From Campylobacter concisus (GTDB lineage: Bacteria > Campylobacterota > Campylobacteria > Campylobacterales > Campylobacteraceae), in the NCBI RefSeq assembly GCF_003048375.1, contig NZ_CP021642.1, positions 1,556,527-1,620,526 on the forward strand: a stretch of 64,000 nt of DNA, read 5' to 3'. The notes below the pieces were generated by a model. The model was not told the DNA's origin and did no database searches. It saw only the letters and a list, made by a program, of their open reading frames with translations. A program made the position numbers and the translations under genes. Positions within the stretch are counted from its first letter, which is position 1; each line of letters starts with the position of its first letter. Shown piece after piece: positions 6,464 through 34,443 of the stretch.

Positions 6464-9400
6464 ATGCCAATCACCCCTAGAAATGATGCAAATTTTAAAG
6501 AAAACTTAATAGATATCATCAAACTATCATATAGCGCCGACATCAATAAGCCTTTCATCTCTGGTGACAAGCTACTTATGGGCTATAGCTTTAGTCTAAA
6601 AGACGATCTAGACACGATATGCACTCAAATTTATGGTGCTAGCAAAGCAAAAGTGATCGAGGCTATTAGAAAAACCATAACCAACACTACAACAAAAACC
6701 GTGGTTTCAAAGATAGATGCAGAAAAGCTTTTTAACGATATAAATAATGCTGCAAGGGTTGCTTACGCAAAGGCATCTGGCAGCGCTGGCGCAGAGTTGC
6801 CTGAGTTTAAATTTAGCCAAGATGAGCAGTTAAATGCCATTTTAGAGTCAAAGCTAAAGCCACTAGCGGCTGATATAAAAGAGAAGCTAAGAGGCTCGTC
6901 GCTGGCAATTTTAGAAGAGGTCAAGCTCACTTCATATGTGGCGTCTAATGTTTCAAAAGAGCACGTCGCACTCCTAGCCCTGCTTCACATAAGTAGCAAG
7001 AAAAATATCGACCCAGCTTTAGCAAGCTATATCAAGAGCAAAAGTCGCTTTAAAGCGTGGTTTTGGCTTGCTTTCGAGAGCTTTAGCGGCGATAATCCAC
7101 ATAACCTTAAACTTTTAAGAAAAAAGATCTCAGCTCAGTTTGGCCTTTATGAGTCAGACGAAAACAACAAAGCTCTAAACGACACGTCTAGCGCGGCTAG
7201 CATGGAGCGCGTCAGCTTTGGTGAGTGCATAGATATCTTTACTCACCTAAATATCTCTAAAGCTATGTATGTAACAAAAGACAAAAACGGCAAAGAGCAC
7301 AAAGAAGACGTCACACACTTAGAATTTATGCAAAAAGACAAAGAGAGATCAAACAGCACCGATTCAAAGTGTGAGGGGCTGTTTAAGCCATTTGCTGATA
7401 AGCTAAATTCTCTTTTAGCCTCTCAAACATCAAAGAAATTTAGCACTGAAAATATCTACTGCGTAAATTTAACCTCCTCTTCTACGTCTAACGCTTCAAG
7501 GATAAATAAGCTCTTAAAAAGAAGAGAAGAAGAGCTTTATAAACAAGAGGATATGCTCATACTCTGCCCTATAAAGACTGCTACTCCTATTAGGATATTT
7601 CAGCCTAAAAAGAGCAACTTTACCATCGTGCTAGCCAGCCAAAGCGAATTTGACTGCAGCGAGCTAAACCCAAAAGAGCTAAATCCTAGCAGACCAAACT
7701 ATGGCAAGCTAAATTTATGCGAGCTAATACTCACTGACTTTAAATTTGACTCTTATGAGAAAGAGAACAAAGGCGCTTCAGCTGATAGAGATATCAAATT
7801 TAAAAACGCAAAGACAAAGTCAGATAGTGTGATCCTTTATAAAGAAAACGATGATGGCAAAGATGATAAAAACAAGACAAAGGGCGCTTGCTTTACTAGC
7901 ATAAGACAAAGTAGCGATGAGATAGAGTACAAGCTAGAAGATGGTGTCGTAAAGATGAGCCACTTCCCCCTCCCCTCATCTAAAGACGAATATCTAAATT
8001 TCAACCTTCTAAATTTCGCTAAGGAGAATAACTTTACCCTTAGAGATGATAAAGACTCAGCTATGTTTGATATGAAGCTTCGTCTAGCTCTTGGTAATAA
8101 TGCAGAACCTACATCAACATCTAGCTCAAGCCTTGCTCTAACACTAAATAATCTCATCATTGAAAACGAAAAAGGTGAAGCTAGTGATATAGATAAGATA
8201 TATCTTCACCACTGCGGTGATAAAAATATATATGAGAGTACATCTTTAGTTAAAAATAAAGACTCTGATATCAAAAACTCATATACAGCTACATTTAATA
8301 TCCCTATAGATAGAAATGACAAGAAAGATACTAAGCTTATAGTCTATTCAAGTGATCTAAGCAAAATTTATGATACCAAAGGGATACATGCCTACACTGG
8401 TACAGCTATCATATCTATAGGATATAAAGATAAAAGTGGTGGTAGCTTTAGCTATACAAACAAGGTATCTTTAAGAGATATAACAGATCATATAGTAAAT
8501 GTAGTCTCTGATAGTGAGTATCCATTTAAGACAAATGAAGAGATAAGTTTAAAGGCTATATATAAACAAGAAAAAGGTAGTAAGAGGTATAAAGAGGTAC
8601 TTTGGGGATATAAGGTCATAAAAACCATAGAGTATAACGAAGTATCTAAATCAAATCCTAAAGATGTGGTAGAGCTAAAAGATAAAAAGGGTAAAGAGAT
8701 AAGATTTAAAATTTCAGATCTTATAAAAAAAGATGATCTAGAGAGGCTAAAGCAAGGTGGTCATACTATAGTATTTTTTGCATATCTTGAAGGTGAGAGT
8801 GATAAATTTAAATATCAAAGCGTATATGGTAAAAACCATATAAGGATAGATATAAAGATACCTTTATATATTAAATTTAAAGATGATAAGCTCATCATAT
8901 ATGAGTTTGAGCATGCTATAAAAGAGAAGAGCTTTAAAGCTAGTCTAAATCATGATGATGCCTTAGTAAATAAAAGTGGCTACTTATATATAAATAAAGA
9001 TATGTCAGCACAGGATATAAATATCTATGAAGATGACAAACTTACTAAAGAGCTAAAGAGTGAAGATAGTACAAATAAGAGATATCAAATTTACATAGAT
9101 GAAGCAAATTCCACAAACAATCAAAACCCAAGCAACACAAACCAAACAGGTCAAACAAAGATAAACCAAGATACCAAGTATGGTATCAATCTACTAAGCA
9201 AAGATAATATGAATAGCTTTATCAACTCTTTTAATGAGTCAAAGAGCATAACAAGAGTAGATAAGGGTATGTGGGTGGATGGGGATAGAGAAGCAAATGT
9301 TTTAATAGAGATCAAAGACTATCCTTTTACGCTAAGTATGCTAAAGCAGGTATTTACCAATATAAAAACAAATCAAGAATATATCTTGCAAGAGATGGTG

Positions 9401-10099
9401 GATGAGTTAAATAGAAGAGATGATGAAGATGGAATTCAAATGTATGTAAAATATAAGCTTGATACTAGAAATAGATTGGAGCATTTTTTTGGGCAATGCT
9501 TTGTAGAGGCAAAGACAACAAAAGGTGATTTTACTTTAGAAGAAGAACTGGGGAAATTTACAGAGAATAATATAATTAGCCATAGAGGCAAAGCCAGATT
9601 AGAAGAAGCCAAAAAACTATATCCGCAATATTATGACAAGACAGATCCTTCAAAATGGGCAAAATTTGTTGGTAACGCTATGTACTCTGATCGTGGAAAG
9701 GGTTATTTGGGTAATGATGGTGGCGATGATGGATTTAATTTTAGAGGTAGAGGAATTAAGCAACTTACTGGAAAATTTAACTATAAAGATTTCAACAAAT
9801 ATGCGCATAATAATTATTGGCTAGATGAAGAAGTAAATTTTGTAAATTCACCAGATTTATTAATTTCAGATGGAAAATATGCTCTAGTCTCTGCTGCATA
9901 TTTTTGGACTATAGAAAGACCAAAGCCTAAAAAATATCGTCTTTATGAAATAGCTGATGAAAGTAAAGCAGATTCGGACAATAGCGATATAGTAGAACGT
10001 ATAACTGCTGTTATAAATCCACAAAAACTTAGTCTTGAGCAGAGAAAAGAAGCCTATAAACGCATAAAAACAGCAAATGTGTTTAAAATATTTCAGTAA
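6464..10099 (+). CDS. giant (1211 aa) protein with no signal peptide and a C-terminal GH19 family (chitinase/endolysin-type lysozyme) catalytic domain; putative secreted cell-wall hydrolase effector
   Basis: Long uninterrupted ORF with RBS. C-terminal residues match GH19 signatures from memory: HFFGQCFVEAK vs FLAQTSHETTG; RGRGIKQLTGKFNYKDF vs YGRGPIQLSWNYNYG; NSPDLLISDGKYALVSAAYFWTIERPKP vs [29 protein letters not shown]. The N-terminal ~960 aa are K/D/N-rich with no recognisable domain. Confidence 0.75.
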   Translation: MPITPRNDANFKENLIDIIKLSYSADINKPFISGDKLLMGYSFSLKDDLDTICTQIYGASKAKVIEAIRKTITNTTTKTVVSKIDAEKLFNDINNAARVAYAKASGSAGAELPEFKFSQDEQLNAILESKLKPLAADIKEKLRGSSLAILEEVKLTSYVASNVSKEHVALLALLHISSKKNIDPALASYIKSKSRFKAWFWLAFESFSGDNPHNLKLLRKKISAQFGLYESDENNKALNDTSSAASMERVSFGECIDIFTHLNISKAMYVTKDKNGKEHKEDVTHLEFMQKDKERSNSTDSKCEGLFKPFADKLNSLLASQTSKKFSTENIYCVNLTSSSTSNASRINKLLKRREEELYKQEDMLILCPIKTATPIRIFQPKKSNFTIVLASQSEFDCSELNPKELNPSRPNYGKLNLCELILTDFKFDSYEKENKGASADRDIKFKNAKTKSDSVILYKENDDGKDDKNKTKGACFTSIRQSSDEIEYKLEDGVVKMSHFPLPSSKDEYLNFNLLNFAKENNFTLRDDKDSAMFDMKLRLALGNNAEPTSTSSSSLALTLNNLIIENEKGEASDIDKIYLHHCGDKNIYESTSLVKNKDSDIKNSYTATFNIPIDRNDKKDTKLIVYSSDLSKIYDTKGIHAYTGTAIISIGYKDKSGGSFSYTNKVSLRDITDHIVNVVSDSEYPFKTNEEISLKAIYKQEKGSKRYKEVLWGYKVIKTIEYNEVSKSNPKDVVELKDKKGKEIRFKISDLIKKDDLERLKQGGHTIVFFAYLEGESDKFKYQSVYGKNHIRIDIKIPLYIKFKDDKLIIYEFEHAIKEKSFKASLNHDDALVNKSGYLYINKDMSAQDINIYEDDKLTKELKSEDSTNKRYQIYIDEANSTNNQNPSNTNQTGQTKINQDTKYGINLLSKDNMNSFINSFNESKSITRVDKGMWVDGDREANVLIEIKDYPFTLSMLKQVFTNIKTNQEYILQEMVDELNRRDDEDGIQMYVKYKLDTRNRLEHFFGQCFVEAKTTKGDFTLEEELGKFTENNIISHRGKARLEEAKKLYPQYYDKTDPSKWAKFVGNAMYSDRGKGYLGNDGGDDGFNFRGRGIKQLTGKFNYKDFNKYAHNNYWLDEEVNFVNSPDLLISDGKYALVSAAYFWTIERPKPKKYRLYEIADESKADSDNSDIVERITAVINPQKLSLEQRKEAYKRIKTANVFKIFQ

Positions 10100-10108
10100 G
10101 GGAATAGA

Positions 10109-10900
10109 ATGAAATTTAAAATTATATTGTTAGCCCTAATTGCTAGTTTAAATTTAAGCGCTTTTGAGCCTTTAACCCCTGAAAATGCTATCAATAAATT
10201 TAGTAATGATTTTTACCAACTAAATGATTATGATTCAAGCCCTTGGAGAGACTACGGTACAAAGAGTAAACCAAGCTTTGCTTGCTATGACACCAAAGGA
10301 AAGTATAAATTTAAAAAATACTCTTTAGAAGACTTTATATGCCAGTCAGACTATAACTCTTTTAGGGATAACTATTTTGCTGATATTTATAATCTAATAA
10401 TAAAAGAAGCTCCAAATTTAAAAGAAAAAGCTCAAAAGATAGCTAGAGATAGGATAGCTAAAACTCAAAAAGAGTGTATCAGATACTCCAAAAAAGAGTA
10501 TGACTATAGCTTTGTTGCTAAATCAGCATTTTTTGTATCTGAAAGTATCTACTGCATAAAGAATTTCTATAGAGAGTATACTGCTAAGCTATCTTTAATG
10601 CTTTACGAGAACGATAAAGAGCTATTTAGTAGAATTTACGGTGAAGATTACCACAAATTTAAAGAGGTATTTGAAGATACTTTAAAATATGTACCGATAG
10701 AAAATGGTAGCATGCCAAGAGATGTAAAAAGAACTGAAATAAACAATGACTTTTTACAAAAATACAAAAGTTACCACTATGATGACGACTACCCACAGAT
10801 AGATGACATGTTATATATCATGCTCGTGCAATACTCACTCATTGATAAAAATGGCCATTTAGTTTTACCTGAAAATAGAAAAAACGATGTCAAAAACTAG
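10109..10900 (+). CDS. exported hypothetical protein (263 aa), Cys-containing
   Basis: N-terminal signal-like segment MKFKIILLALIASLNLSAF. Starts 9 nt after the giant ORF's stop. Confidence 0.6.
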   Translation: MKFKIILLALIASLNLSAFEPLTPENAINKFSNDFYQLNDYDSSPWRDYGTKSKPSFACYDTKGKYKFKKYSLEDFICQSDYNSFRDNYFADIYNLIIKEAPNLKEKAQKIARDRIAKTQKECIRYSKKEYDYSFVAKSAFFVSESIYCIKNFYREYTAKLSLMLYENDKELFSRIYGEDYHKFKEVFEDTLKYVPIENGSMPRDVKRTEINNDFLQKYKSYHYDDDYPQIDDMLYIMLVQYSLIDKNGHLVLPENRKNDVKN

Positions 10901-11363
10901 ATTTTTATACTTATTGCTACTTTTAGCTATATTTTCTAATGCTCAAAACTTAAATATAGAAACATATAGCAAGGATAACAAATGCTCCATAAGCATAAAT
11001 GATGAAGAGATATATAGCAGAGAGTGCGAGTATGAGCTTGAACCAAATTTAATATTTTATACCAAAGTTAATAGCAGCGAAGTGTGGATATTTCAAGACA
11101 TACAAAACTATGCTGCTTGCAATGGACACGGGCCTTTGAGAATTTTTGAAAAGAAAGATGACGACAAGATAAAATTTCAAGGCGAGATAGATTGGTGCGC
11201 GGGTGTGCCATTTTTTGAAGTCAGTGATAGAGGCATCTTGATAATAGACAAACCACACAAAAATGCACTAACCAACAACGGCGACCCAAATTTTAAAGGT
11301 AGCGGGAAACTATCTGACGAAAGCAAATATAAATTTGAGAATGGAAAGATCAAAAAGATATAG
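10887..11363 (+). CDS. exported hypothetical protein (158 aa)
   Basis: Signal-like N-terminus MSKTRFLYLLLLLAIFSNAQN. Overlaps the upstream ORF by 14 nt. Confidence 0.55.
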   Translation: MSKTRFLYLLLLLAIFSNAQNLNIETYSKDNKCSISINDEEIYSRECEYELEPNLIFYTKVNSSEVWIFQDIQNYAACNGHGPLRIFEKKDDDKIKFQGEIDWCAGVPFFEVSDRGILIIDKPHKNALTNNGDPNFKGSGKLSDESKYKFENGKIKKI

Positions 11364-11415
11364 TTTTGCCTTTGTTAAATAGATATAATGCGGTTAAAAA
11401 AGCACGGACATAGGT

Positions 11416-11781
11416 ATGACAAACAAGATAGTTGTTTTTTATTTTATAGCACTAGGCTTTATAGCGCATAACGCCTACGCAAAAAATATAAATTTAACGG
11501 GGATTTACAAGAATGAGTCTTGTAATATTTCAATAGAAATAACGAAAAATACCAATAAAGCGAAGTATTTTTACAAGATAGTGGAGAATAATCAGACAAA
11601 ATCACAAGGCTATATATCAAGCATAAAAAGCAACGGCGAAGGTGGATTTTATATAAAATTAAAAAAGATTGACGGGATGTATGAAAATGGTAGCATAGTC
11701 ATACAAAACTACGGAAACTCTATGAGCAAGTATATTTATTTTGAAGATTGCGATAGTAAATACTTAAAATTTGATAAATGA
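11416..11781 (+). CDS. exported hypothetical protein (121 aa)
   Basis: Signal-like N-terminus MTNKIVVFYFIALGFIAHNAYA. Confidence 0.55.
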   Translation: MTNKIVVFYFIALGFIAHNAYAKNINLTGIYKNESCNISIEITKNTNKAKYFYKIVENNQTKSQGYISSIKSNGEGGFYIKLKKIDGMYENGSIVIQNYGNSMSKYIYFEDCDSKYLKFDK

Positions 11782-11836
11782 CCCAGTGTGTGATTTTGTA
11801 ATTACTATTTCGCAGTAAATTTTAAAAGAAAGAACT

Positions 11837-12319
11837 ATGGTAGTTTTTAGATTTTTTATTTTAATCAATTTATTCTTTGCATTTATCAAGGCTGATGAGT
11901 TCGGGTATTACTATGAAAATGAAAAATTTTTAATAGCTATTCTGATGTTCGAATGTGAGGGTGACATACATTGTACAAATGGTGGTTATTTTGGGGTAAA
12001 TAAAAGAAATAGCAAAAGTTTAGAAATTTTATCAAAACCAACACCAATAAAAAATAGTATAAATGAGCGCTTGATGGGGTATAAATTTAGAAATTCAAAC
12101 TACATGTATGAAATTTATGGCGACATAATGTCTGGTGGAAAAATGTATTTGAACGTTTTTAAGCAAGGAAAAACTATTTTTAAAAGCGATGATTTACAAC
12201 AGATAGAACAAGAAGAATTCCTATCCAAACTTAAAGAAATAGATAAAAGGCTACCTGTGAGCTTTGAAAAATTTTATAAGAAGCTACAAAACAAATACAA
12301 AAATGAAAACCATCAATAA
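11837..12319 (+). CDS. exported hypothetical protein (160 aa)
   Basis: Hydrophobic N-terminus MVVFRFFILINLFFAFIKA. Confidence 0.5.
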   Translation: MVVFRFFILINLFFAFIKADEFGYYYENEKFLIAILMFECEGDIHCTNGGYFGVNKRNSKSLEILSKPTPIKNSINERLMGYKFRNSNYMYEIYGDIMSGGKMYLNVFKQGKTIFKSDDLQQIEQEEFLSKLKEIDKRLPVSFEKFYKKLQNKYKNENHQ

Positions 12320-13010
12320 AATAATTCTTTTTTATCTAGTGCTATTTATGTCGCTAGCTCTTTTTGCAGAGCAAACCACCAAGCAGTGCTTTAGTAGATA
12401 TTTAGATAGCAAGGCTCATTTTATCAACGATGACAAATTTGATAAATTTGATTTTTATGGCATTATAGCTGACACTCGTACAAAATTTTTGGGCTATATC
12501 GGAGCTGATTATCACAGGCTACATATAAATTTTAACAGCGTCAAAAAGGTCTCAAAGACAAAATATATAGTATCTGGTGAATATAAAATAACCGCAGAGG
12601 CTCGCCCATTTAACGGCGAAATTCAAATAACCAAAATAAAAAAGTATATAAATTTAAACTACAGCGTTGATGACTTTATAAAAGGCAAGATCAAAGCCCA
12701 AGGCATAGCCTTAGCGAGCTATATCTTAAAAGGCGATGGAGGTTTTCAAGCCAAAGGTCAAATGCTCATAAAATGGTACATTAATAGCGATCAAAGACTA
12801 GCGTATGACGATATATCAGAAGATGAGGATATGTACGCAAATGATCTATTTTGTGGAGAGTGCAAGGTGGGCAAGGCGCAAGCAAAACCATGCGCATGGG
12901 GGCATTACAGGATACCAAACAGCGGCGATCTTGATGTGGGAGTTGGGGAATTTAGCCCCAATACAAAATATCTTAACAACGGCTGGAGCGACTTTAACAA
13001 GGATGAATAA
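12303..13010 (+). CDS. exported hypothetical protein (236 aa; start revised from 12264 to MKTINK)
   Basis: Signal-like ILFYLVLFMSLALFA. Overlaps the upstream ORF by 17 nt. Confidence 0.55.
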   Translation: MKTINKIILFYLVLFMSLALFAEQTTKQCFSRYLDSKAHFINDDKFDKFDFYGIIADTRTKFLGYIGADYHRLHINFNSVKKVSKTKYIVSGEYKITAEARPFNGEIQITKIKKYINLNYSVDDFIKGKIKAQGIALASYILKGDGGFQAKGQMLIKWYINSDQRLAYDDISEDEDMYANDLFCGECKVGKAQAKPCAWGHYRIPNSGDLDVGVGEFSPNTKYLNNGWSDFNKDE

Positions 13011-13542
13011 ATTTTCTATAAAAAGCTTTTTAATGCTATCTATAATTTTAGGCTTTCTAAATTTAGCTGCTAGCGAAAATTTACCACGCATAACGAGTGT
13101 AGATAATATCAAGGTTGGTAAAAAACTAGCTTTACATAACGTCAAATACTTCTTAGATGGCGAAAAGGCAAGCTTTATAAATTTAGACAAAACGCAAATA
13201 ATGACGCTTGATTTTTGCTGTGGAGGTAACGGCGAAATTCAAAGGATAAACGTCAAATTTTATGATAAAAATTTGACTAAAGATTATATAAATTTCAGCA
13301 AGATAAAAGAATTTACTACAAATTCTGGTATCAAGCTTGGCGACAAACAAGAGCAAATTTTAAATAAGCTAGGCAAGCCAAACGACCTACTAGAGGAAAA
13401 TGACACAACTACTGTTACCTATACCACCAAGCAAAGTAAGAGCCGCCTCTTGCAAGAATTTGACATGCCGCTCTACTATGAGAAATTTATCTTTTATGGC
13501 GATGTTTTAAAAGAGTATGAATTTGGCTTTGAGTATCCGTGA
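13003..13542 (+). CDS. exported hypothetical protein (179 aa; start revised to MNKFSIK)
   Basis: Signal-like SFLMLSIILGFLNLAAS. Overlaps the upstream ORF by 8 nt. The 12805 start in the ORF track overlaps the previous gene out of frame. Confidence 0.55.
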   Translation: MNKFSIKSFLMLSIILGFLNLAASENLPRITSVDNIKVGKKLALHNVKYFLDGEKASFINLDKTQIMTLDFCCGGNGEIQRINVKFYDKNLTKDYINFSKIKEFTTNSGIKLGDKQEQILNKLGKPNDLLEENDTTTVTYTTKQSKSRLLQEFDMPLYYEKFIFYGDVLKEYEFGFEYP

Positions 13543-26696: not shown

Positions 26697-27590
26697 ATGG
26701 AAAACGAAGAGTTAAAAGATATACTTTTAGAAAAAGATGATGAGGCAAAGGGCGCGAAACTAAAGAAACTTCTTATGTTTATAGCAGCTCTTGTTATACT
26801 TTTTTTAATCATCATCGTAGCCATGAAGCTTATAAATTCAAGCGACTCGACACAAGCACAAAATGAAGCCGACTCAAGACTAGTTCTGCCTCCAGTACCA
26901 GCAGAGCAGCCAGTCGATACGCAGGTGCCTGCACAAGATACAAATTCAGATGTTAAAAAAGGCGATACACAACTTTTTGAGCAAGTGCCTATCGTGCCTG
27001 AAAACAAGCAACAAGATGATTTTGAAGATATGATCAAAAAGCTAAAAGATAAAGAAGGCGCAAAATCAGCTCCTAAAACTGAAGAGCCAAAAGAGGTAGT
27101 AAAAGCTGTCGAGCATCCAACTGAAGCACCTAAAAAAGCTGAGGCAAAGGTAGAGGCTCCAGCTAAAAAAGCTGAAACAAAAAGCGAAGCTAAAGCAGAG
27201 AAAAAAGCTGAAGCAAAGCCAGCCAAAACTGAGGCAAAAGCCGAGAAGAAAGCTGAAACTAAAGCTGAGAAAAAACCTGAAACAAAGGTAGAAAAAAAGG
27301 CTGAAGCTCCTGCAAAAGCAGAAAAAGTAGAGAAAAAAGCTGAAGCTCCAGCAAAAGCTGAGAGTGTCGCAAAAGGCTCTTATGTTCAAGTATTTGCAAC
27401 TAGTAAATTTAACCCAAATGCCGACTATATGAAAAAAATAGCAGCCAAAGGCTATAGCTACAAAACTATAAAAGCTGGCGAGCTAACTAAAATTTTAGTT
27501 GGTCCATTTGATGAAAAAGGGCTACAAAAAGCCGTAAATGATATAAGAAAAGATGTCAATAAAGACGCTTTTGTCTTTAGAGCAAAATGA
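26697..27590 (+). CDS. SPOR-domain membrane protein with a Lys/Ala/Glu-rich repetitive linker
   Basis: N-terminal TM segment. AEAK/KKAE imperfect repeats. The C-terminus is SPOR-like (KILVGPFDEKGLQKAVNDIRKD). Confidence 0.7.
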   Translation: MENEELKDILLEKDDEAKGAKLKKLLMFIAALVILFLIIIVAMKLINSSDSTQAQNEADSRLVLPPVPAEQPVDTQVPAQDTNSDVKKGDTQLFEQVPIVPENKQQDDFEDMIKKLKDKEGAKSAPKTEEPKEVVKAVEHPTEAPKKAEAKVEAPAKKAETKSEAKAEKKAEAKPAKTEAKAEKKAETKAEKKPETKVEKKAEAPAKAEKVEKKAEAPAKAESVAKGSYVQVFATSKFNPNADYMKKIAAKGYSYKTIKAGELTKILVGPFDEKGLQKAVNDIRKDVNKDAFVFRAK

Positions 27591-28402: not shown

Positions 28403-28999
28403 ATGAAAAAATTATCAAGCTTAATAAATAATGTTCTAAAGCTTAGCGATATAAATTTTAACTCCTTTAGTTACTCTAAAAACTGGATAGGCTTTTTTGA
28501 GATAGAGGATGAAAACTGGGCTTCTGGCGTAGATACCGCACTAAAGCTATTTGATAAATATTTTTATAAATTTAAAAAAGAGGTATTTGTCATAAGCGCC
28601 TTAAACTACGACGATACTAACTTGAGCGATGAAACGCTTGAAGTAAAAACTTTGCACGATAAATTTAAAAAGTTAGGCATCTTGCAAGAGCCAAATGAGC
28701 ACTTTGATCTTGGTTTAGATGGTGAGATTTTGCTACCTGCCATCTGCCTTAGGATAGATGCTTTAAAATTTAATGAGATCAAAGATCTAGCTAAACTACT
28801 TATGCTCTATACATACTCCTTAAACGAGTGGTGCTTTTTTATCTTTCCAAGCCTAAATTTAGCGCTTTATCCACATGATGAGAGAGGTTTTGGCTGCATC
28901 GGACTAAATGACGATATAAAAAATGGATTAAATTTTTTAGAGTTTTGTAAAAGAGAGAAAAATGCAAAGGTTGTTTTAAAAGAGCAAAATAGCAACTAA
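28403..28999 (+). CDS. hypothetical protein (198 aa)
   Basis: ORF only. Confidence 0.45.
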   Translation: MKKLSSLINNVLKLSDINFNSFSYSKNWIGFFEIEDENWASGVDTALKLFDKYFYKFKKEVFVISALNYDDTNLSDETLEVKTLHDKFKKLGILQEPNEHFDLGLDGEILLPAICLRIDALKFNEIKDLAKLLMLYTYSLNEWCFFIFPSLNLALYPHDERGFGCIGLNDDIKNGLNFLEFCKREKNAKVVLKEQNSN

Positions 29000-29055
29000 A
29001 TTTTAAGATCACACAAAACTAAAAGCCCCCTTGCCAAAGCAAAGGAGGAAAATTT

Positions 29056-30977
29056 TTACTTCTCAAACGCTTTTTGCAAGCTAAATGGAAACGCTTGATA
29101 GCCCATAGCATTTGTCATTTTTATCTCGATGCTAGGCTCTTTTGCACCCCACTCAAACTCATCGATGTGCGGGCTAGGAAGTCCTACTGGGCGACCTTTT
29201 GCGATGTCAAACTGCATACCAGCAACAGCTGAATAGACCATCACGCTATCAAGGTCATCTTGATACTGCGTAAGGCTAGTAACTGAGCTATACCACTCTT
29301 TGCCACGCTCTTTGCCGTACTCCCAGATCTGCTCAACGGTCTTTTTGTTCTCATCGATCTTATAAACGACCGCACGAGAGTACTTCATGCCAGCGATGGC
29401 TGGTTGCTCCATGCCCCTTGTGTCGCCGTTGTCAAAGACGCTTAAATAAATTTCGCCCTTTTTAGACTTGCTGTCTATCCTAAATGCCGTATGTTGCGTC
29501 CATTGCCAGTCAAAGCCACCTTTGTCGCTCTCGTATCCTGGGCATTTTGAGTACTCATCTTCGCAGACGATCTTGTTGCCTTTGCTATCGACTGGCTGAA
29601 GCAGCTTATCTTTAAATTTATCGCTCCAACCCTTGTGAGCGCCCATGATCCATTTTACTTGTTTATCACGGCCGATCTTTATAACTGCGTCTTGATGGCG
29701 GCTTGAGATGATGATGCTATCATCGCTTGGGTCGTAATCCACACTATTTACGTGTGCCCAGTTGCGTCCAGGACCAGCGCCAACTATGTCGCCCCATTTA
29801 TCGTGTGTATCCATAGACTGAAGCTCATCAGAGCTTGCTGTGTGGCCTGCTTTTTTAGCGTCTATGTTTAAGCAAACTGCGCCTTGATCAAGTGTTTTTA
29901 GCACGATGTCGCGGTAAGGATCAAGGATTTCATATAGTCTAAAGTCATCAACTACGTTGCCGTCGCGGTCAAGCTCAACGATGACATCGCGCACTGTTCT
30001 TACGTTTTTGCCATCAGCCCTTTTGTAGTCGGCATTTGCCACGCGCAAGAAGTAGTGTCCGTTTTGTGCTACGTCCATACTGTTCTTACGTTTTTGCCAT
30101 CAGCCCTTTTGTAGTCGGCATTTGCCACGCGCAAGAAGTAGTGTCCGTTTTGTGCTACGTCCATTGAGTGAGAGAAGTCGTTGTAGCTAGCTGGTAGCTC
30201 GCGGTTGAAAATTTCTCTACCCATGATGTCGTATTTTGCGTATCTTTGGCCATATCCCCAAGTCATAGCGCCGTCGTCATTTTGCTTAAAGCCCATCATA
30301 ACGCCAGCATGAAATGGCTGTTTTAGGTCGTAAATTTTACTTGGCTCAAGATACCATCTAACCTCGCCTTTTGTATCAAGGATGAAGTTATTTGGGCTGT
30401 AGTTCCACTCGATCGCACCGCCAGCTGGGTTATTCCAAACGACTTTTGTGCCCTTGCCTGTTTTATTTACAAAGTTATTTACATAGTAGAGGCGGTTTGC
30501 AAATTTAGCACTCGCAGGCTTAGTAACCTCGATCTTGTCAAATAGCGCGCCCTTTTGATTTGGTGTGCCAGCGCTCTCTAGGTAGATAGCTGGAGCGTAA
30601 ATTTTATAGCTCTCTTTTATATGCTCAGTCTTGCCCTTGTAACTCTTGTCGTACTCGACTTCAACGGTGTTTTGATAGTCAGCATACATACCAAAAACTG
30701 GGATGCCACCATGTGTGCGAAGATGCTTGTCAGCCACTTTGTAGCTTATCACCTGACCACCTTGTTTTGGCACGATAGTGACCTTAGCGTTGCTTAGTGT
30801 GTAGCCGCCATTTTTGATGACTGCTGTAAGTGGGGCAGTATCGTATGGATTTACCACTACTTCGCCGATAGCTCCTGTTATAGCGTAGTCAAGTTTAGCT
30901 CCGCTTGGACCGCCTATCGCAAAAGCAGCCGTACAAAGTGCAGAAGCAAGCGCAACAGAACACAAAGTTTTTCTCAT
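29056..30977 (-). pseudogene. periplasmic arylsulfate sulfotransferase-like beta-propeller protein, split into two ORFs by an 86-bp tandem duplication
   Basis: The 5' ORF (30069-30977) has a signal peptide. The 3' ORF (29056-30078) restarts with the same residues MDVAQNGHYFLRVANADYKRADGKNVRTV. Removing one 86-bp copy gives a continuous ~611-aa protein. Confidence 0.6.
29993..30164. repeat. perfect 2 x 86-bp direct tandem duplication inside a CDS
   Basis: 29993-30078 is identical to 30079-30164 (ACTGTTCTTACGTTTTTGCCATCAGCCC...GCTACGTCCAT). 86 is not a multiple of 3. Confidence 0.9.
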
Positions 30978-32990: not shown

Positions 32991-33671
32991 TTAGACTTTT
33001 ATTGCCTCTCTTAAAAACCTATATTCTTTAAAAAATTTGCGGAGTGATTTTTGCTCTTTTGGGCCGATCTTGTAGCTTATAAATTTAAGATACCACTTGA
33101 TATCTTGCTCGCTTATGTCGCGGCTTTTGGCATACTGGGCTAATATATAATTTGGAATTTTTACATTTTTTTGCAAAAATTTTGCGACCAGCCTTTTGTA
33201 AAACGAGCCATTTTTTACATAAGAAAATCTACCAAAAACAAAGGGCAAATTTGTCTTTTCATGCCAAATTTGACCAAGGTCGTAAAAGCACTCTTTGCCC
33301 TCGCTTAAGTATGCCTTTAGCGCCCTGTCGCCTATGATCACCTCGCCATTTAGTTTAAGCACCTTGGCTAGGGCGTTTGAGCTAGCTGAGGCAGGATCTG
33401 GCTTTGGGGCTGAGTTTTTGCGCACAAGCACGCTTTTGACATCTTTTTTGGCGACTATTCCAAAATTTAGCTTCTTTAAATTTGCCTTTTTGCTTGCTAT
33501 GCTTGAGATCACCGCAGCGTCGATCTTTCTAGCGTTTAGGGCTCTGTTTAGCTTGCTTGGCACGCCCTTTTTAAACTCGATCGCCTTTTTTATCTGAGAG
33601 CTTAGTGGGGCTGATTTTAAAAATACGTGAAATGGGAGTAAATTTAAATAATCAATCTTTCCAAATATCAT
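32991..33671 (-). CDS. mqnA: MqnA/MqnD-family menaquinone (futalosine pathway) protein, likely chorismate dehydratase
   Basis: N-terminus MIFGKIDYLNLLPF is typical of MqnA. In C. jejuni the homologue lies next to upp. Confidence 0.55.
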   Translation of the reverse strand: MIFGKIDYLNLLPFHVFLKSAPLSSQIKKAIEFKKGVPSKLNRALNARKIDAAVISSIASKKANLKKLNFGIVAKKDVKSVLVRKNSAPKPDPASASSNALAKVLKLNGEVIIGDRALKAYLSEGKECFYDLGQIWHEKTNLPFVFGRFSYVKNGSFYKRLVAKFLQKNVKIPNYILAQYAKSRDISEQDIKWYLKFISYKIGPKEQKSLRKFFKEYRFLREAIKV

Positions 33672-33940
33672 TTTTCATCTTTTACAAGCTCAAATTTAAC
33701 CATCTCATTTTCGTTGCAAACGTCGCGAAATAGCTGGGTTAAGCTCACTTTTGTGGCACTATCCAAAGCATTTTCGTTTTTTAGCTTTATAAGCGTTGGC
33801 TCATTTATCTCGCAAAGGCAGTCAAAGAGCGCGTCTAAATTTTTGCCGTAGTACTCTGGCAGGTCAAATTTCTTCGCTAAATACTCATGCATCTTCTCTT
33901 TTTCGACCATCTTTTTGGCATCTAAGATCACGCTTTTCAT
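33668..33940 (-). CDS. barstar-family ribonuclease inhibitor
   Basis: LPEYYGKNLDALFDCL matches barstar LPEYYGENLDALWDCL. 90 aa. Confidence 0.8.
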   Translation of the reverse strand: MKSVILDAKKMVEKEKMHEYLAKKFDLPEYYGKNLDALFDCLCEINEPTLIKLKNENALDSATKVSLTQLFRDVCNENEMVKFELVKDEK

Positions 33941-34443
33941 TGCATCCTCTTCTCATAAAGCAGATAAAAATGCTCGTAGTGATCGGGCGTGTAGTAGATA
34001 AGCCCGTCGTTTGAGTATAAAATTCTCTCAGCGCCGCGTCTGCCACCATTATAATTTACATCGCACTCAAACCACTTTCTACCATCAGCCTCAGGCAGCC
34101 TCTTTTCTCTGTTTGAAAATCTATCCCCGCCGATACTTTTGCCACCACTTACCTGCCATAAATTTCCGCTTTTTGCGTCCCAGCCAAGTTCAAGTGCCTC
34201 TTTTTTGGTTATGAAATTCTTTGGTAGCTTGTTAAATTTATAGATATAAAGCGCGACCTCATCTTTTGAGGTGTATGAGCCGTTTTCTGCGAGACTCTGG
34301 CTCTTTTGCCCCTCTTTGTTTAGCTGCTCAAGTAAAATTTGAGCGTTTTTGTTTGCCTCGCCGCCCTCTTTTGAAAAAAAGAAGGTGCCAACGATGATGG
34401 CAATGACAAAGGCGACTAGAGCTGGCAAAAGTCTTTTGTTCAA
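33937..34443 (-). CDS. barnase-family secreted guanyl-specific ribonuclease with N-terminal signal/anchor
   Basis: KLPKNFITKKEALELGW...GKSIGGDRFSNREKRLP...ERILYSNDGLIYYTPDHYEHF aligns with barnase (KLPDNYITKSEAQALGW...GKSIGGDIFSNREGKLP...DRILYSSDWLIYKTTDHYQTF). Confidence 0.8.
   Translation of the reverse strand: MNKRLLPALVAFVIAIIVGTFFFSKEGGEANKNAQILLEQLNKEGQKSQSLAENGSYTSKDEVALYIYKFNKLPKNFITKKEALELGWDAKSGNLWQVSGGKSIGGDRFSNREKRLPEADGRKWFECDVNYNGGRRGAERILYSNDGLIYYTPDHYEHFYLLYEKRMQ

What the first reader, a model, noticed from the sequence alone, without database searches (positions are those of the whole stretch)
29993..30164. Perfect 86-bp tandem duplication that frameshifts a periplasmic ASST-like gene
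The duplication gives two identical head-to-tail 86-bp copies, with no flanking repeat extension. Because 86 is not a multiple of 3, it breaks a ~611-codon minus-strand gene. That gene has a signal peptide and a beta-propeller-like sequence, and I tentatively assign it to the arylsulfate sulfotransferase family, where Campylobacter AstA belongs. The break yields ORFs 30069-30977 and 29056-30078. The downstream ORF restarts with the duplicated peptide MDVAQNGHYFLRVANADYKRADGKNVRTV. A perfect, mutation-free copy implies a very recent event. It could also be a reversible recA-independent duplication/deletion switch, or an assembly artefact.
Basis: seen in the sequence. Interest (0 to 1): 0.65.

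Follow-up and report, generated by a model that had tools for sequence, protein, structure and literature searches.

The report
Recent 86-bp duplication breaks sulfotransferase gene
One strain of the oral and gut bacterium Campylobacter concisus carries a very recent, strain-private 86-base tandem duplication that frameshifts its otherwise well-conserved periplasmic arylsulfate sulfotransferase gene; this is a real but ordinary loss-of-function mutation, not a new kind of system.

Summary
Window 29993-30164 is two identical head-to-tail 86-bp copies with no homology at the junction. Removing one copy restores a 611-codon minus-strand gene (29056-30977). That gene is clearly an arylsulfate sulfotransferase: Pfam E 4e-141, E. 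coli AssT structure E 2e-121, and all active-site residues and the Cys pair are conserved.

The organism is Campylobacter concisus. Of 103 full-length orthologous loci, 101 are intact and none has two copies. One single-copy allele is 100% identical in nucleotides. The gene is under strong purifying selection (median dN/dS 0.03). The duplication junction is absent from both contig collections scanned.

An assembly artefact is unlikely. An independent k=31 assembly of run SRR4434314 is 100% identical to the window on both sides, and it breaks exactly k-1 bases inside each end of the unit. That is the signature of a real repeat in the reads.

Nothing supports a programmed switch: no recurrence, no simple-sequence tract, no microhomology. 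Reversion by deletion of one copy is expected in principle. Verdict: a real, recent, private pseudogenising duplication of low novelty.

The parts
29056..30977 (-). Disrupted arylsulfate sulfotransferase gene (astA/assT orthologue of Campylobacter concisus). It is 1922 nt including the extra 86 nt and the stop codon, and 1836 nt (611 codons) once one copy is removed.
   Evidence: ORFs and reconstruction. Pfam PF17425 at residues 40-129 and PF05935 at 149-598, E 4e-141. E. coli AssT 3ELQ, E 2e-121; 96-100% aa identity to intact C. concisus orthologues.
30079..30164 (-). First 86-bp copy in gene orientation. It encodes M272-T299 plus 2 nt of codon 300.
29993..30078 (-). Second 86-bp copy in gene orientation, the extra copy. 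It is read out of frame by the upstream ORF, and its ATG (30076-30078) starts the downstream ORF.
30067..30090 (-). Novel junction sequence GTAAGAACAGT|ATGGACGTAGCAC (unit end joined to unit start, junction between 30079 and 30078), with no microhomology. It is unique to this genome in the collections searched.
   Evidence: flanking bases differ. (0 exact matches in genome contigs and metagenome contigs).
30069..30977 (-). N-terminal fragment ORF of 302 aa: signal peptide, Ig-like N domain and the first part of the beta-propeller including His270 (equivalent to E. coli His252). It ends in 2 out-of-frame residues (WT) and TAG.
29056..30078 (-). C-terminal fragment ORF of 340 aa with no signal peptide. 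It carries His380, Asn382, Arg398, Cys443/Cys450, the catalytic His467 (codon 29491-29493) and Thr538.
   Evidence: Residue roles come from PMC13426309.
30918..30977 (-). Predicted Sec signal peptide MRKTLCSVALASALCTAAFA, followed by IGGPSG. This was read by eye; no predictor was run. An AAGGAG ribosome-binding site lies 5 nt upstream of the ATG.
   Evidence: the alignment to mature E. coli AssT starts at query residue 34.
29026..29047 (-). Terminator-like hairpin 9 nt after the stop codon. The gene is therefore probably monocistronic and no polar effect is expected.
   Evidence: a consensus scan only.

Best explanation
This is a real, very recent, strain-private spontaneous tandem duplication of 86 bp inside the single-copy arylsulfate sulfotransferase gene (astA/assT orthologue) of a Campylobacter concisus strain. 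Because 86 is not a multiple of 3, translation shifts frame after residue 300 and stops two codons later. The exported product is a 302-aa stub: signal peptide, N-terminal Ig-like domain and about a third of the six-bladed propeller. The remaining 340 residues carry the catalytic histidine (His467, equivalent to E. coli His436) and most sulfuryl-binding residues. They could only be made from an internal ATG without a signal peptide, and so would stay in the cytoplasm. The enzyme is therefore lost, which is a simple loss of function. Shown here: the duplication, the frame break, the family membership, the intactness and conservation of the gene in the rest of the species, the privacy of the junction, and read-level support for the repeat. 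Inferred: loss of activity, separate compartments for the two fragments, the origin of the duplication as an illegitimate (homology-independent) replication or repair error, and the expectation that precise loss of one copy would restore the wild-type gene at an appreciable rate.
For: Perfect 2 x 86 bp repeat with no flanking homology. The reconstructed 611-aa protein has PF17425 plus PF05935 at E 4e-141. It aligns end to end with E. coli AssT 3ELQ at E 2e-121. E. coli residues His252, His356, Asn358, Arg374, His436, Thr501 and the Cys418-Cys424 pair are all conserved (roles from PMC13426309). The organism is C. concisus, and 101 of 103 full-length orthologous loci have an intact 611- or 615-codon gene (the other two, L023 and L034, could not be confirmed intact and were not examined further); none has two copies. 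Median dN/dS is 0.032 at median dS 0.22 over 64 orthologues, so the gene is normally maintained. L013 (GCA_977870405.1) carries a single-copy allele identical at 1836 of 1836 nt, so the pseudogene has no further decay. 18 of the 86 unit positions vary in the species, yet the two copies are identical. The junction has 0 matches in genome contigs and metagenome contigs. Read-level support comes from two contigs of the k=31 Logan assembly of run SRR4434314, which match the window at 7579/7579 and 6967/6967 nt. One ends exactly 30 nt into the unit and the other starts exactly 30 nt before its end. I predicted the second break point before looking it up. The window holds no paralogue.
Against: I could not inspect reads, so the copy number in the culture (pure two-copy, or a mix of one and two) is unknown. 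The k=31 break points show that the unit has a second predecessor and a second successor in the reads, but they do not by themselves prove tandem rather than dispersed arrangement; that rests on the window assembly. If the window was assembled from the same run, the two assemblies are not independent data, only independent algorithms. Loss of enzyme activity is inferred, and a paralogue outside the 64-kb window cannot be excluded.
Confidence: 0.85

Rival explanations
1. Assembly artefact: the genome really has one copy and the assembler wrote the 86 bp twice.
For: Perfect, mutation-free tandem copies are what collapse or expansion errors look like. The junction is found in no other contig of two large collections. 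No gene product spanning the junction is on record.
Against: An independent de Bruijn (k=31) assembly of run SRR4434314 is 100% identical to the window over 14.5 kb. It breaks exactly k-1 = 30 nt inside each end of the unit. A single-copy sequence has no branch there and would be assembled straight through. The contigs on either side are 8.9 and 55.8 kb long, so this is not a strain mixture breaking at ordinary SNPs.
Confidence: 0.04
2. Evolved or selected reversible ON/OFF switch: a phase-variation-like mechanism in which spontaneous duplication and precise excision toggle sulfotransferase expression, as described for pneumococcal capsule genes.
For: A perfect 86-bp direct repeat is intrinsically unstable, and its precise deletion restores the wild-type gene exactly (established knowledge of repeat-mediated deletion). 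The pseudogene has accumulated no other damage. Spontaneous reversible duplications that control capsule expression are documented in Streptococcus pneumoniae serotypes 3, 8 and 37 (Waite et al. 2001 and 2003, cited in PMC4243769).
Against: There is no recurrence. None of the >100 orthologous loci from isolates, MAGs and metagenomes has two copies of this unit, and the junction is absent from both collections. Two further low-coverage or long-read contigs do show broken frames elsewhere, plausibly sequencing errors. There is no simple-sequence tract, no microhomology and no flanking structure that would make this site a hot spot. Known Campylobacter phase variation works through homopolymeric G/C tracts (PMC8355987, abstract). 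The gene is under strong purifying selection in the species.
Confidence: 0.06
3. The duplication is real but present in only part of the sequenced culture, for example a laboratory-passage variant. In that case the strain as a whole is not sulfotransferase-negative.
For: The k=31 graph breaks are equally expected from a pure two-copy population and from a one-copy/two-copy mixture (reasoning). Such duplications arise and revert quickly.
Against: The assembler of the window chose the two-copy path, which suggests it was not a rare variant. There is no direct evidence either way.
Confidence: 0.15

Closest known systems
E. coli CFT073 arylsulfate sulfotransferase AssT (PDB 3ELQ/3ETS/3ETT) and Campylobacter jejuni AstA
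   Same: Same Pfam architecture (PF17425 Ig-like N domain plus PF05935 propeller). Full-length alignment at E 2e-121. The catalytic His (E. coli His436) and His252, His356, Asn358, Arg374 and Thr501 are conserved, as is the Cys pair. It has an N-terminal export signal.
   Different: The allele here is frameshifted and cannot make the full protein. The gene stands alone between a Band_7/flotillin gene and a variable slot. It is not in an operon with dsbL/dsbI as in E. coli, nor with dsbA2-dsbB as in C. jejuni 81-176 (PMC3167755). The Cys-Cys spacing is 6 residues here against 5 in E. coli.
Spontaneous intragenic sequence duplications in pneumococcal capsule genes cap3A, cap8E and tts (Waite et al. 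2001, 2003; cited in PMC4243769)
   Same: A perfect tandem duplication inside an ORF inactivates the gene, and precise loss of one copy can reverse it.
   Different: In pneumococcus many independent duplications recur in the same gene at high frequency, and the switching was shown experimentally. Here there is a single event in one strain, no recurrence in more than 100 loci, and no phenotype or reversion data.
Simple-sequence-repeat phase variation in Campylobacter (poly-G/C tracts)
   Same: Frameshift-based ON/OFF change of a gene for an envelope or periplasmic protein.
   Different: There is no homopolymeric or short-unit tract. The repeated unit is 86 bp and exists as a repeat only in this strain.
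Ordinary strain-specific pseudogenes caused by small insertions or duplications
   Same: It is a private frameshift in a gene that is intact and conserved in the rest of the species.
   Different: Nothing substantive. The only unusual detail is the complete lack of microhomology at the duplication end points.

Membership tests
Arylsulfate sulfotransferase (ASST; PAPS-independent, E. coli AssT type) | Domain architecture: N-terminal Ig-like/beta-sandwich domain plus C-terminal ASST beta-propeller domain | tested here: met
   PF17425 at residues 40-129 (E 2.5e-29) and PF05935 at residues 149-598 (E 4.1e-141) in the reconstructed protein.
Arylsulfate sulfotransferase (ASST; PAPS-independent, E. 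coli AssT type) | Full-length sequence homology to the structurally solved enzyme | tested here: met
   3ELQ_A at E 2e-121, query 34-593 against chain 9-550.
Arylsulfate sulfotransferase (ASST; PAPS-independent, E. coli AssT type) | Catalytic histidine that is transiently sulfurylated (E. coli His436), plus the sulfuryl-binding residues His252, His356, Asn358, Arg374 and Thr501 | tested here: met
   Searches give H467, H270, H380, N382, R398 and T538. The residue list is from PMC13426309.
Arylsulfate sulfotransferase (ASST; PAPS-independent, E. coli AssT type) | Disulfide-forming Cys pair near the active site (E. coli Cys418-Cys424) | tested here: met
   C443 and C450 align with the E. coli pair. 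Spacing is one residue longer. Actual disulfide formation was not testable.
Arylsulfate sulfotransferase (ASST; PAPS-independent, E. coli AssT type) | Export to the periplasm through a signal peptide | not testable with these tools
   The N-terminus MRKTLCSVALASALCTAAFA|IGG looks like a Sec signal, but no signal-peptide predictor was available.
Arylsulfate sulfotransferase (ASST; PAPS-independent, E. coli AssT type) | Uninterrupted reading frame giving a functional enzyme | tested here: not met
   the extra 86 nt split the gene into 302-aa and 340-aa ORFs. This allele is a pseudogene of the family.
Arylsulfate sulfotransferase (ASST; PAPS-independent, E. coli AssT type) | Sulfuryl transfer or arylsulfatase activity | not testable with these tools
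   Needs an enzyme assay. C. concisus is tabulated as 95-100% arylsulfatase-positive in PMC3417403.
Duplication-based phase variation (pneumococcal cap3A type) | Perfect intragenic tandem duplication that inactivates the gene | tested here: met
Duplication-based phase variation (pneumococcal cap3A type) | Recurrent, independent duplications in the same gene across strains or populations | tested here: not met
   every orthologous locus has one copy; the junction is absent from both collections.
Duplication-based phase variation (pneumococcal cap3A type) | High-frequency reversion with restoration of the phenotype | not testable with these tools
   Needs culture work or read-level data.
Simple-sequence-repeat contingency locus (Campylobacter poly-G type) | Homopolymeric or short-unit repeat tract in the ORF or promoter, conserved among strains | tested here: not met
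   the only repeat in the gene is the 86-bp pair, and it is absent in all relatives.
Slipped-strand, microhomology-mediated duplication | Short direct repeat at the two end points of the duplicated segment | tested here: not met
   0 nt of shared sequence at either boundary; no relevant short direct repeats.

The most novel reading that the evidence does not exclude
The duplication is one state of a reversible, selectable ON/OFF toggle of periplasmic sulfotransferase activity in C. concisus. This would be duplication and excision bet-hedging of the pneumococcal capsule type, seen here in the OFF state, perhaps selected in a host niche where sulfating or desulfating phenolic compounds is costly.
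Probability: 0.05. Interest if true: 0.45.

Novelty: new member of a known kind. Interest (0 to 1): 0.15.

Why it matters
It matters little beyond this strain. In practice, the strain is predicted to be arylsulfatase/sulfotransferase-negative in a species tabulated as nearly always positive (PMC3417403), which could confuse phenotypic identification. Annotation pipelines will call the locus a pseudogene. The perfect 86-bp repeat also offers a convenient natural reporter: revertants should regain a chromogenic phenotype, so repeat-mediated deletion rates in C. concisus could be measured. If the switch reading were true, it would add a non-SSR mode of phase variation to Campylobacter, but nothing found here points that way.

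Tried and rejected
1. I looked up the 302-aa junction-spanning product in the assembly index; nothing is on record.

2. I looked up the 340-aa product and first suspected other duplicated alleles or population heterogeneity, because two scaffolds showed a two-ORF layout and seven contigs started exactly at the unit boundary. I rejected this. The two scaffolds (L001, L008) have runs of N upstream and only one copy. The contig starts are explained by a common synonymous SNP (A 33, G 29, T 2) at the base just before the unit in multi-strain metagenomes, together with selection by exact-product look-up.

3. I searched for the exact junction in genome contigs and metagenome contigs and found 0 hits.

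4. I asked whether the SRR4434314 break points could come from two SNPs flanking the unit in a strain mixture. I rejected this because the flanking contigs run unbroken for 8.9 and 55.8 kb at 100% identity to the window.

5. I looked for microhomology or a hairpin that would explain the end points. The only feature is a weak 10-nt inverted repeat (29901-29910 / 29983-29992, 72-nt loop) that ends at the left boundary, probably by coincidence.

6. I searched for a paralogue in the window and found none.

7. NCBIfam has no model matching the protein.

8. A literature search for the run accession found nothing.

Full report
**Observation.** Window 29993-30164 consists of two identical 86-nt copies placed head to tail (29993-30078 and 30079-30164). 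Direct reading, Tandem Repeats Finder (period 86, 2.0 copies, 100% matches, score 344), a repeat search and a string comparison all agree. The bases next to the repeat differ on both sides, so the repeat does not extend and the junction has no microhomology. No other perfect tandem repeat occurs in the 64-kb window. Removing one copy gives one ORF of 1836 nt, or 611 codons.

**What the gene is.** The reconstructed protein matches Pfam Arylsulfotran_N (residues 40-129, E 2.5e-29) and Arylsulfotrans (residues 149-598, E 4.1e-141). It aligns over nearly its whole length with the solved E. coli arylsulfate sulfotransferase AssT (3ELQ, E 2e-121).
- A 2026 review (PMC13426309) lists the residues that make up the E. 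coli active site: His436, which is transiently sulfurylated, and His252, His356, Asn358, Arg374 and Thr501.
- All of these are conserved here as H467, H270, H380, N382, R398 and T538. The Cys418-Cys424 pair is conserved as C443/C450.
- The N-terminus looks like a Sec signal peptide (MRKTLCSVALASALCTAAFA|IGG). An AAGGAG ribosome-binding site precedes the start codon.
- A terminator-like hairpin follows the stop codon, so the gene is probably monocistronic.
- Its neighbours are a Band_7/flotillin gene upstream and a convergent 198-aa ORF downstream. There are no dsb genes nearby, unlike E. coli (assT-dsbL-dsbI) or C. jejuni 81-176 (dsbA2-dsbB-astA; PMC3167755).

**Whose genome, and what the relatives look like.** A scan of one genome per GTDB species returned about 40 Campylobacter concisus-named genomes and MAGs with a 611-codon orthologue at 96-100% amino-acid identity. 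It also returned about 40 C. showae-like MAGs with a 615-codon orthologue at about 89-90% identity. Syntenic metagenome contigs from human oral and gut samples also carry the intact 611-aa gene.
- Across 126 loci, every one that covers this part of the gene at species-level similarity has exactly one copy of the unit.
- 101 of 103 full-length orthologues have an intact frame. Two further loci, from low-coverage or long-read metagenome assemblies (L046, L038), show broken frames elsewhere in the gene and are probably sequencing errors.
- L013 (GCA_977870405.1) carries a single-copy allele identical to the de-duplicated window gene at 1836 of 1836 nt, although its upstream flank differs at 35 of 7635 positions. 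It is therefore a different strain with the same ancestral allele.
- Pairwise Nei-Gojobori estimates against 64 C. concisus orthologues give median dN/dS of 0.032 at median dS of 0.22. The gene is under strong purifying selection in the species.
- 18 of the 86 unit positions are polymorphic among these orthologues, yet the two copies in the window are identical.
- The novel junction (24-mer GTAAGAACAGTATGGACGTAGCAC) has no exact match in the genome collection or the metagenome collection.

Together these results show a single, recent, strain-private event in a gene that the species otherwise keeps.

**Is it an artefact?** One locus returned when I looked up the neighbouring flotillin gene came from the Logan assembly (k=31 de Bruijn graph) of run SRR4434314. 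It matches the window at 7579 of 7579 nt and ends exactly 30 nt into the 86-bp unit.
- In a k=31 graph, a contig entering a repeated segment must stop k-1 = 30 nt inside it, because the first 31-mer lying wholly within the unit has two predecessors.
- If the cause is a repeat of this unit, the downstream contig should begin exactly 30 nt before the unit's end. Its first complete codon would then give a 321-aa partial product.
- I looked up that predicted product. Contig SRR4434314_4 (55.8 kb) starts at precisely that base and matches the window at 6967 of 6967 nt.
- A single-copy sequence would have been assembled straight through.
- A strain mixture breaking at SNPs would not give contigs of 8.9 and 55.8 kb that are 100% identical to the window.

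The reads of that run therefore contain a second predecessor of the unit's start and a second successor of its end, which is what the tandem junction provides. This makes an assembler artefact unlikely. It does not show whether the culture is purely two-copy or a mixture, and I do not know whether the window was assembled from this same run.

**A false lead, resolved.** Looking up the 340-aa product returned 17 contigs. Two scaffolds with a two-ORF layout turned out to have runs of N upstream and only one copy. Seven contigs start at, or 1 nt before, the unit boundary. The base immediately before the unit is a common synonymous polymorphism (A 33, G 29, T 2 among 64 orthologues). Multi-strain metagenome assemblies break there, and the exact-product look-up selects just those contigs. 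None of this is evidence for the duplication elsewhere.

**Consequence and mechanism.** Shown: translation from the native start reads through the first copy (M272 to V300), shifts frame at the junction, adds W-T and stops at TAG. The 302-aa product keeps the signal peptide, the Ig-like domain and the first third of the propeller with H270. The catalytic H467 and four of the five other active-site residues lie in the 340-aa downstream ORF, which has no signal peptide.

Inferred:
- The exported stub cannot fold into a six-bladed propeller.
- Any C-terminal fragment made from the internal ATG stays in the cytoplasm, so activity is lost.
- The lack of any end-point homology points to a homology-independent replication or repair error rather than slippage between short repeats. 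A weak 10-nt inverted repeat ends at the left boundary, but I would not build on it.
- From established knowledge of repeat-mediated deletion, a perfect 86-bp direct repeat is unstable. Precise loss of one copy would restore the wild-type gene, so the mutation is reversible in principle.

**Comparison with known systems.**
- By family, this is a frameshifted allele of a textbook ASST/AstA enzyme. Every sequence-level defining feature I could test is met except an intact frame.
- By behaviour, the closest described phenomenon is the spontaneous, reversible intragenic duplication that switches capsule genes off in Streptococcus pneumoniae serotypes 3, 8 and 37 (Waite et al. 2001 and 2003, cited in PMC4243769). 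There the duplications recur at high frequency. Here I find one event in more than 100 loci.
- Campylobacter phase variation as currently described depends on G/C homopolymeric tracts (PMC8355987, abstract), and none is involved here.
- C. concisus is tabulated as 95-100% arylsulfatase-positive (PMC3417403), so this strain is predicted to be an atypical negative, unless a paralogue lies outside the window. There is none inside it.

**Verdict.** The artefact alternative is unlikely (about 0.04) and the evolved-switch alternative is unsupported (about 0.06). This is a real but ordinary, recent, private pseudogenising duplication in a well-known enzyme family. Interest is 0.15.

Noticed in passing
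window 6464-13542 (+): A low-GC stretch (about 0.31 at 8-12 kb against about 0.40 elsewhere) holds a 1211-aa ORF followed by five ORFs of 121-263 aa. None has any hit in Pfam, NCBIfam or PADLOC. It may be a horizontally acquired island of unknown function.
   Followed up: partly
window 28403-28999 (+), and the same slot in L002-L007 and L128-L131: The slot between the sulfotransferase stop codon and the shikimate dehydrogenase gene is hypervariable among C. concisus contigs. Here it holds a 198-aa ORF with no family hit. Elsewhere it holds unrelated ORFs of 132, 304+366, 602 or 656 aa, or arrays of small ORFs including two Imm41 immunity-protein domains. This suggests a toxin/immunity-type variable cassette site.
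   Followed up: partly
window 33668-34443 (-): A barnase-like secreted ribonuclease (PF00545, 168 aa) lies immediately upstream of, and overlaps, a barstar inhibitor gene (PF01337, 90 aa). The pair is conserved in all syntenic C. concisus loci.
   Followed up: no
window 27168-27358 (+), inside ORF 26697-27590: Imperfect 24- and 39-nt tandem repeats encode a Lys/Ala/Glu-rich low-complexity linker in a SPOR-domain protein. Length variation between strains is likely.
   Followed up: no
window 30165 (the base before the unit in gene orientation; gene position 813): A common synonymous polymorphism (A 33, G 29, T 2 among 64 orthologues) lies exactly at the duplication boundary. It makes many metagenome contigs begin at the unit's first base, which mimics evidence for a structural break.
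   Followed up: yes
L095:762-2351: In a C. showae-like MAG, a second ASST paralogue (about 47% identical) lies directly upstream of the orthologue. ASST copy number therefore differs among oral Campylobacter species.
   Followed up: no
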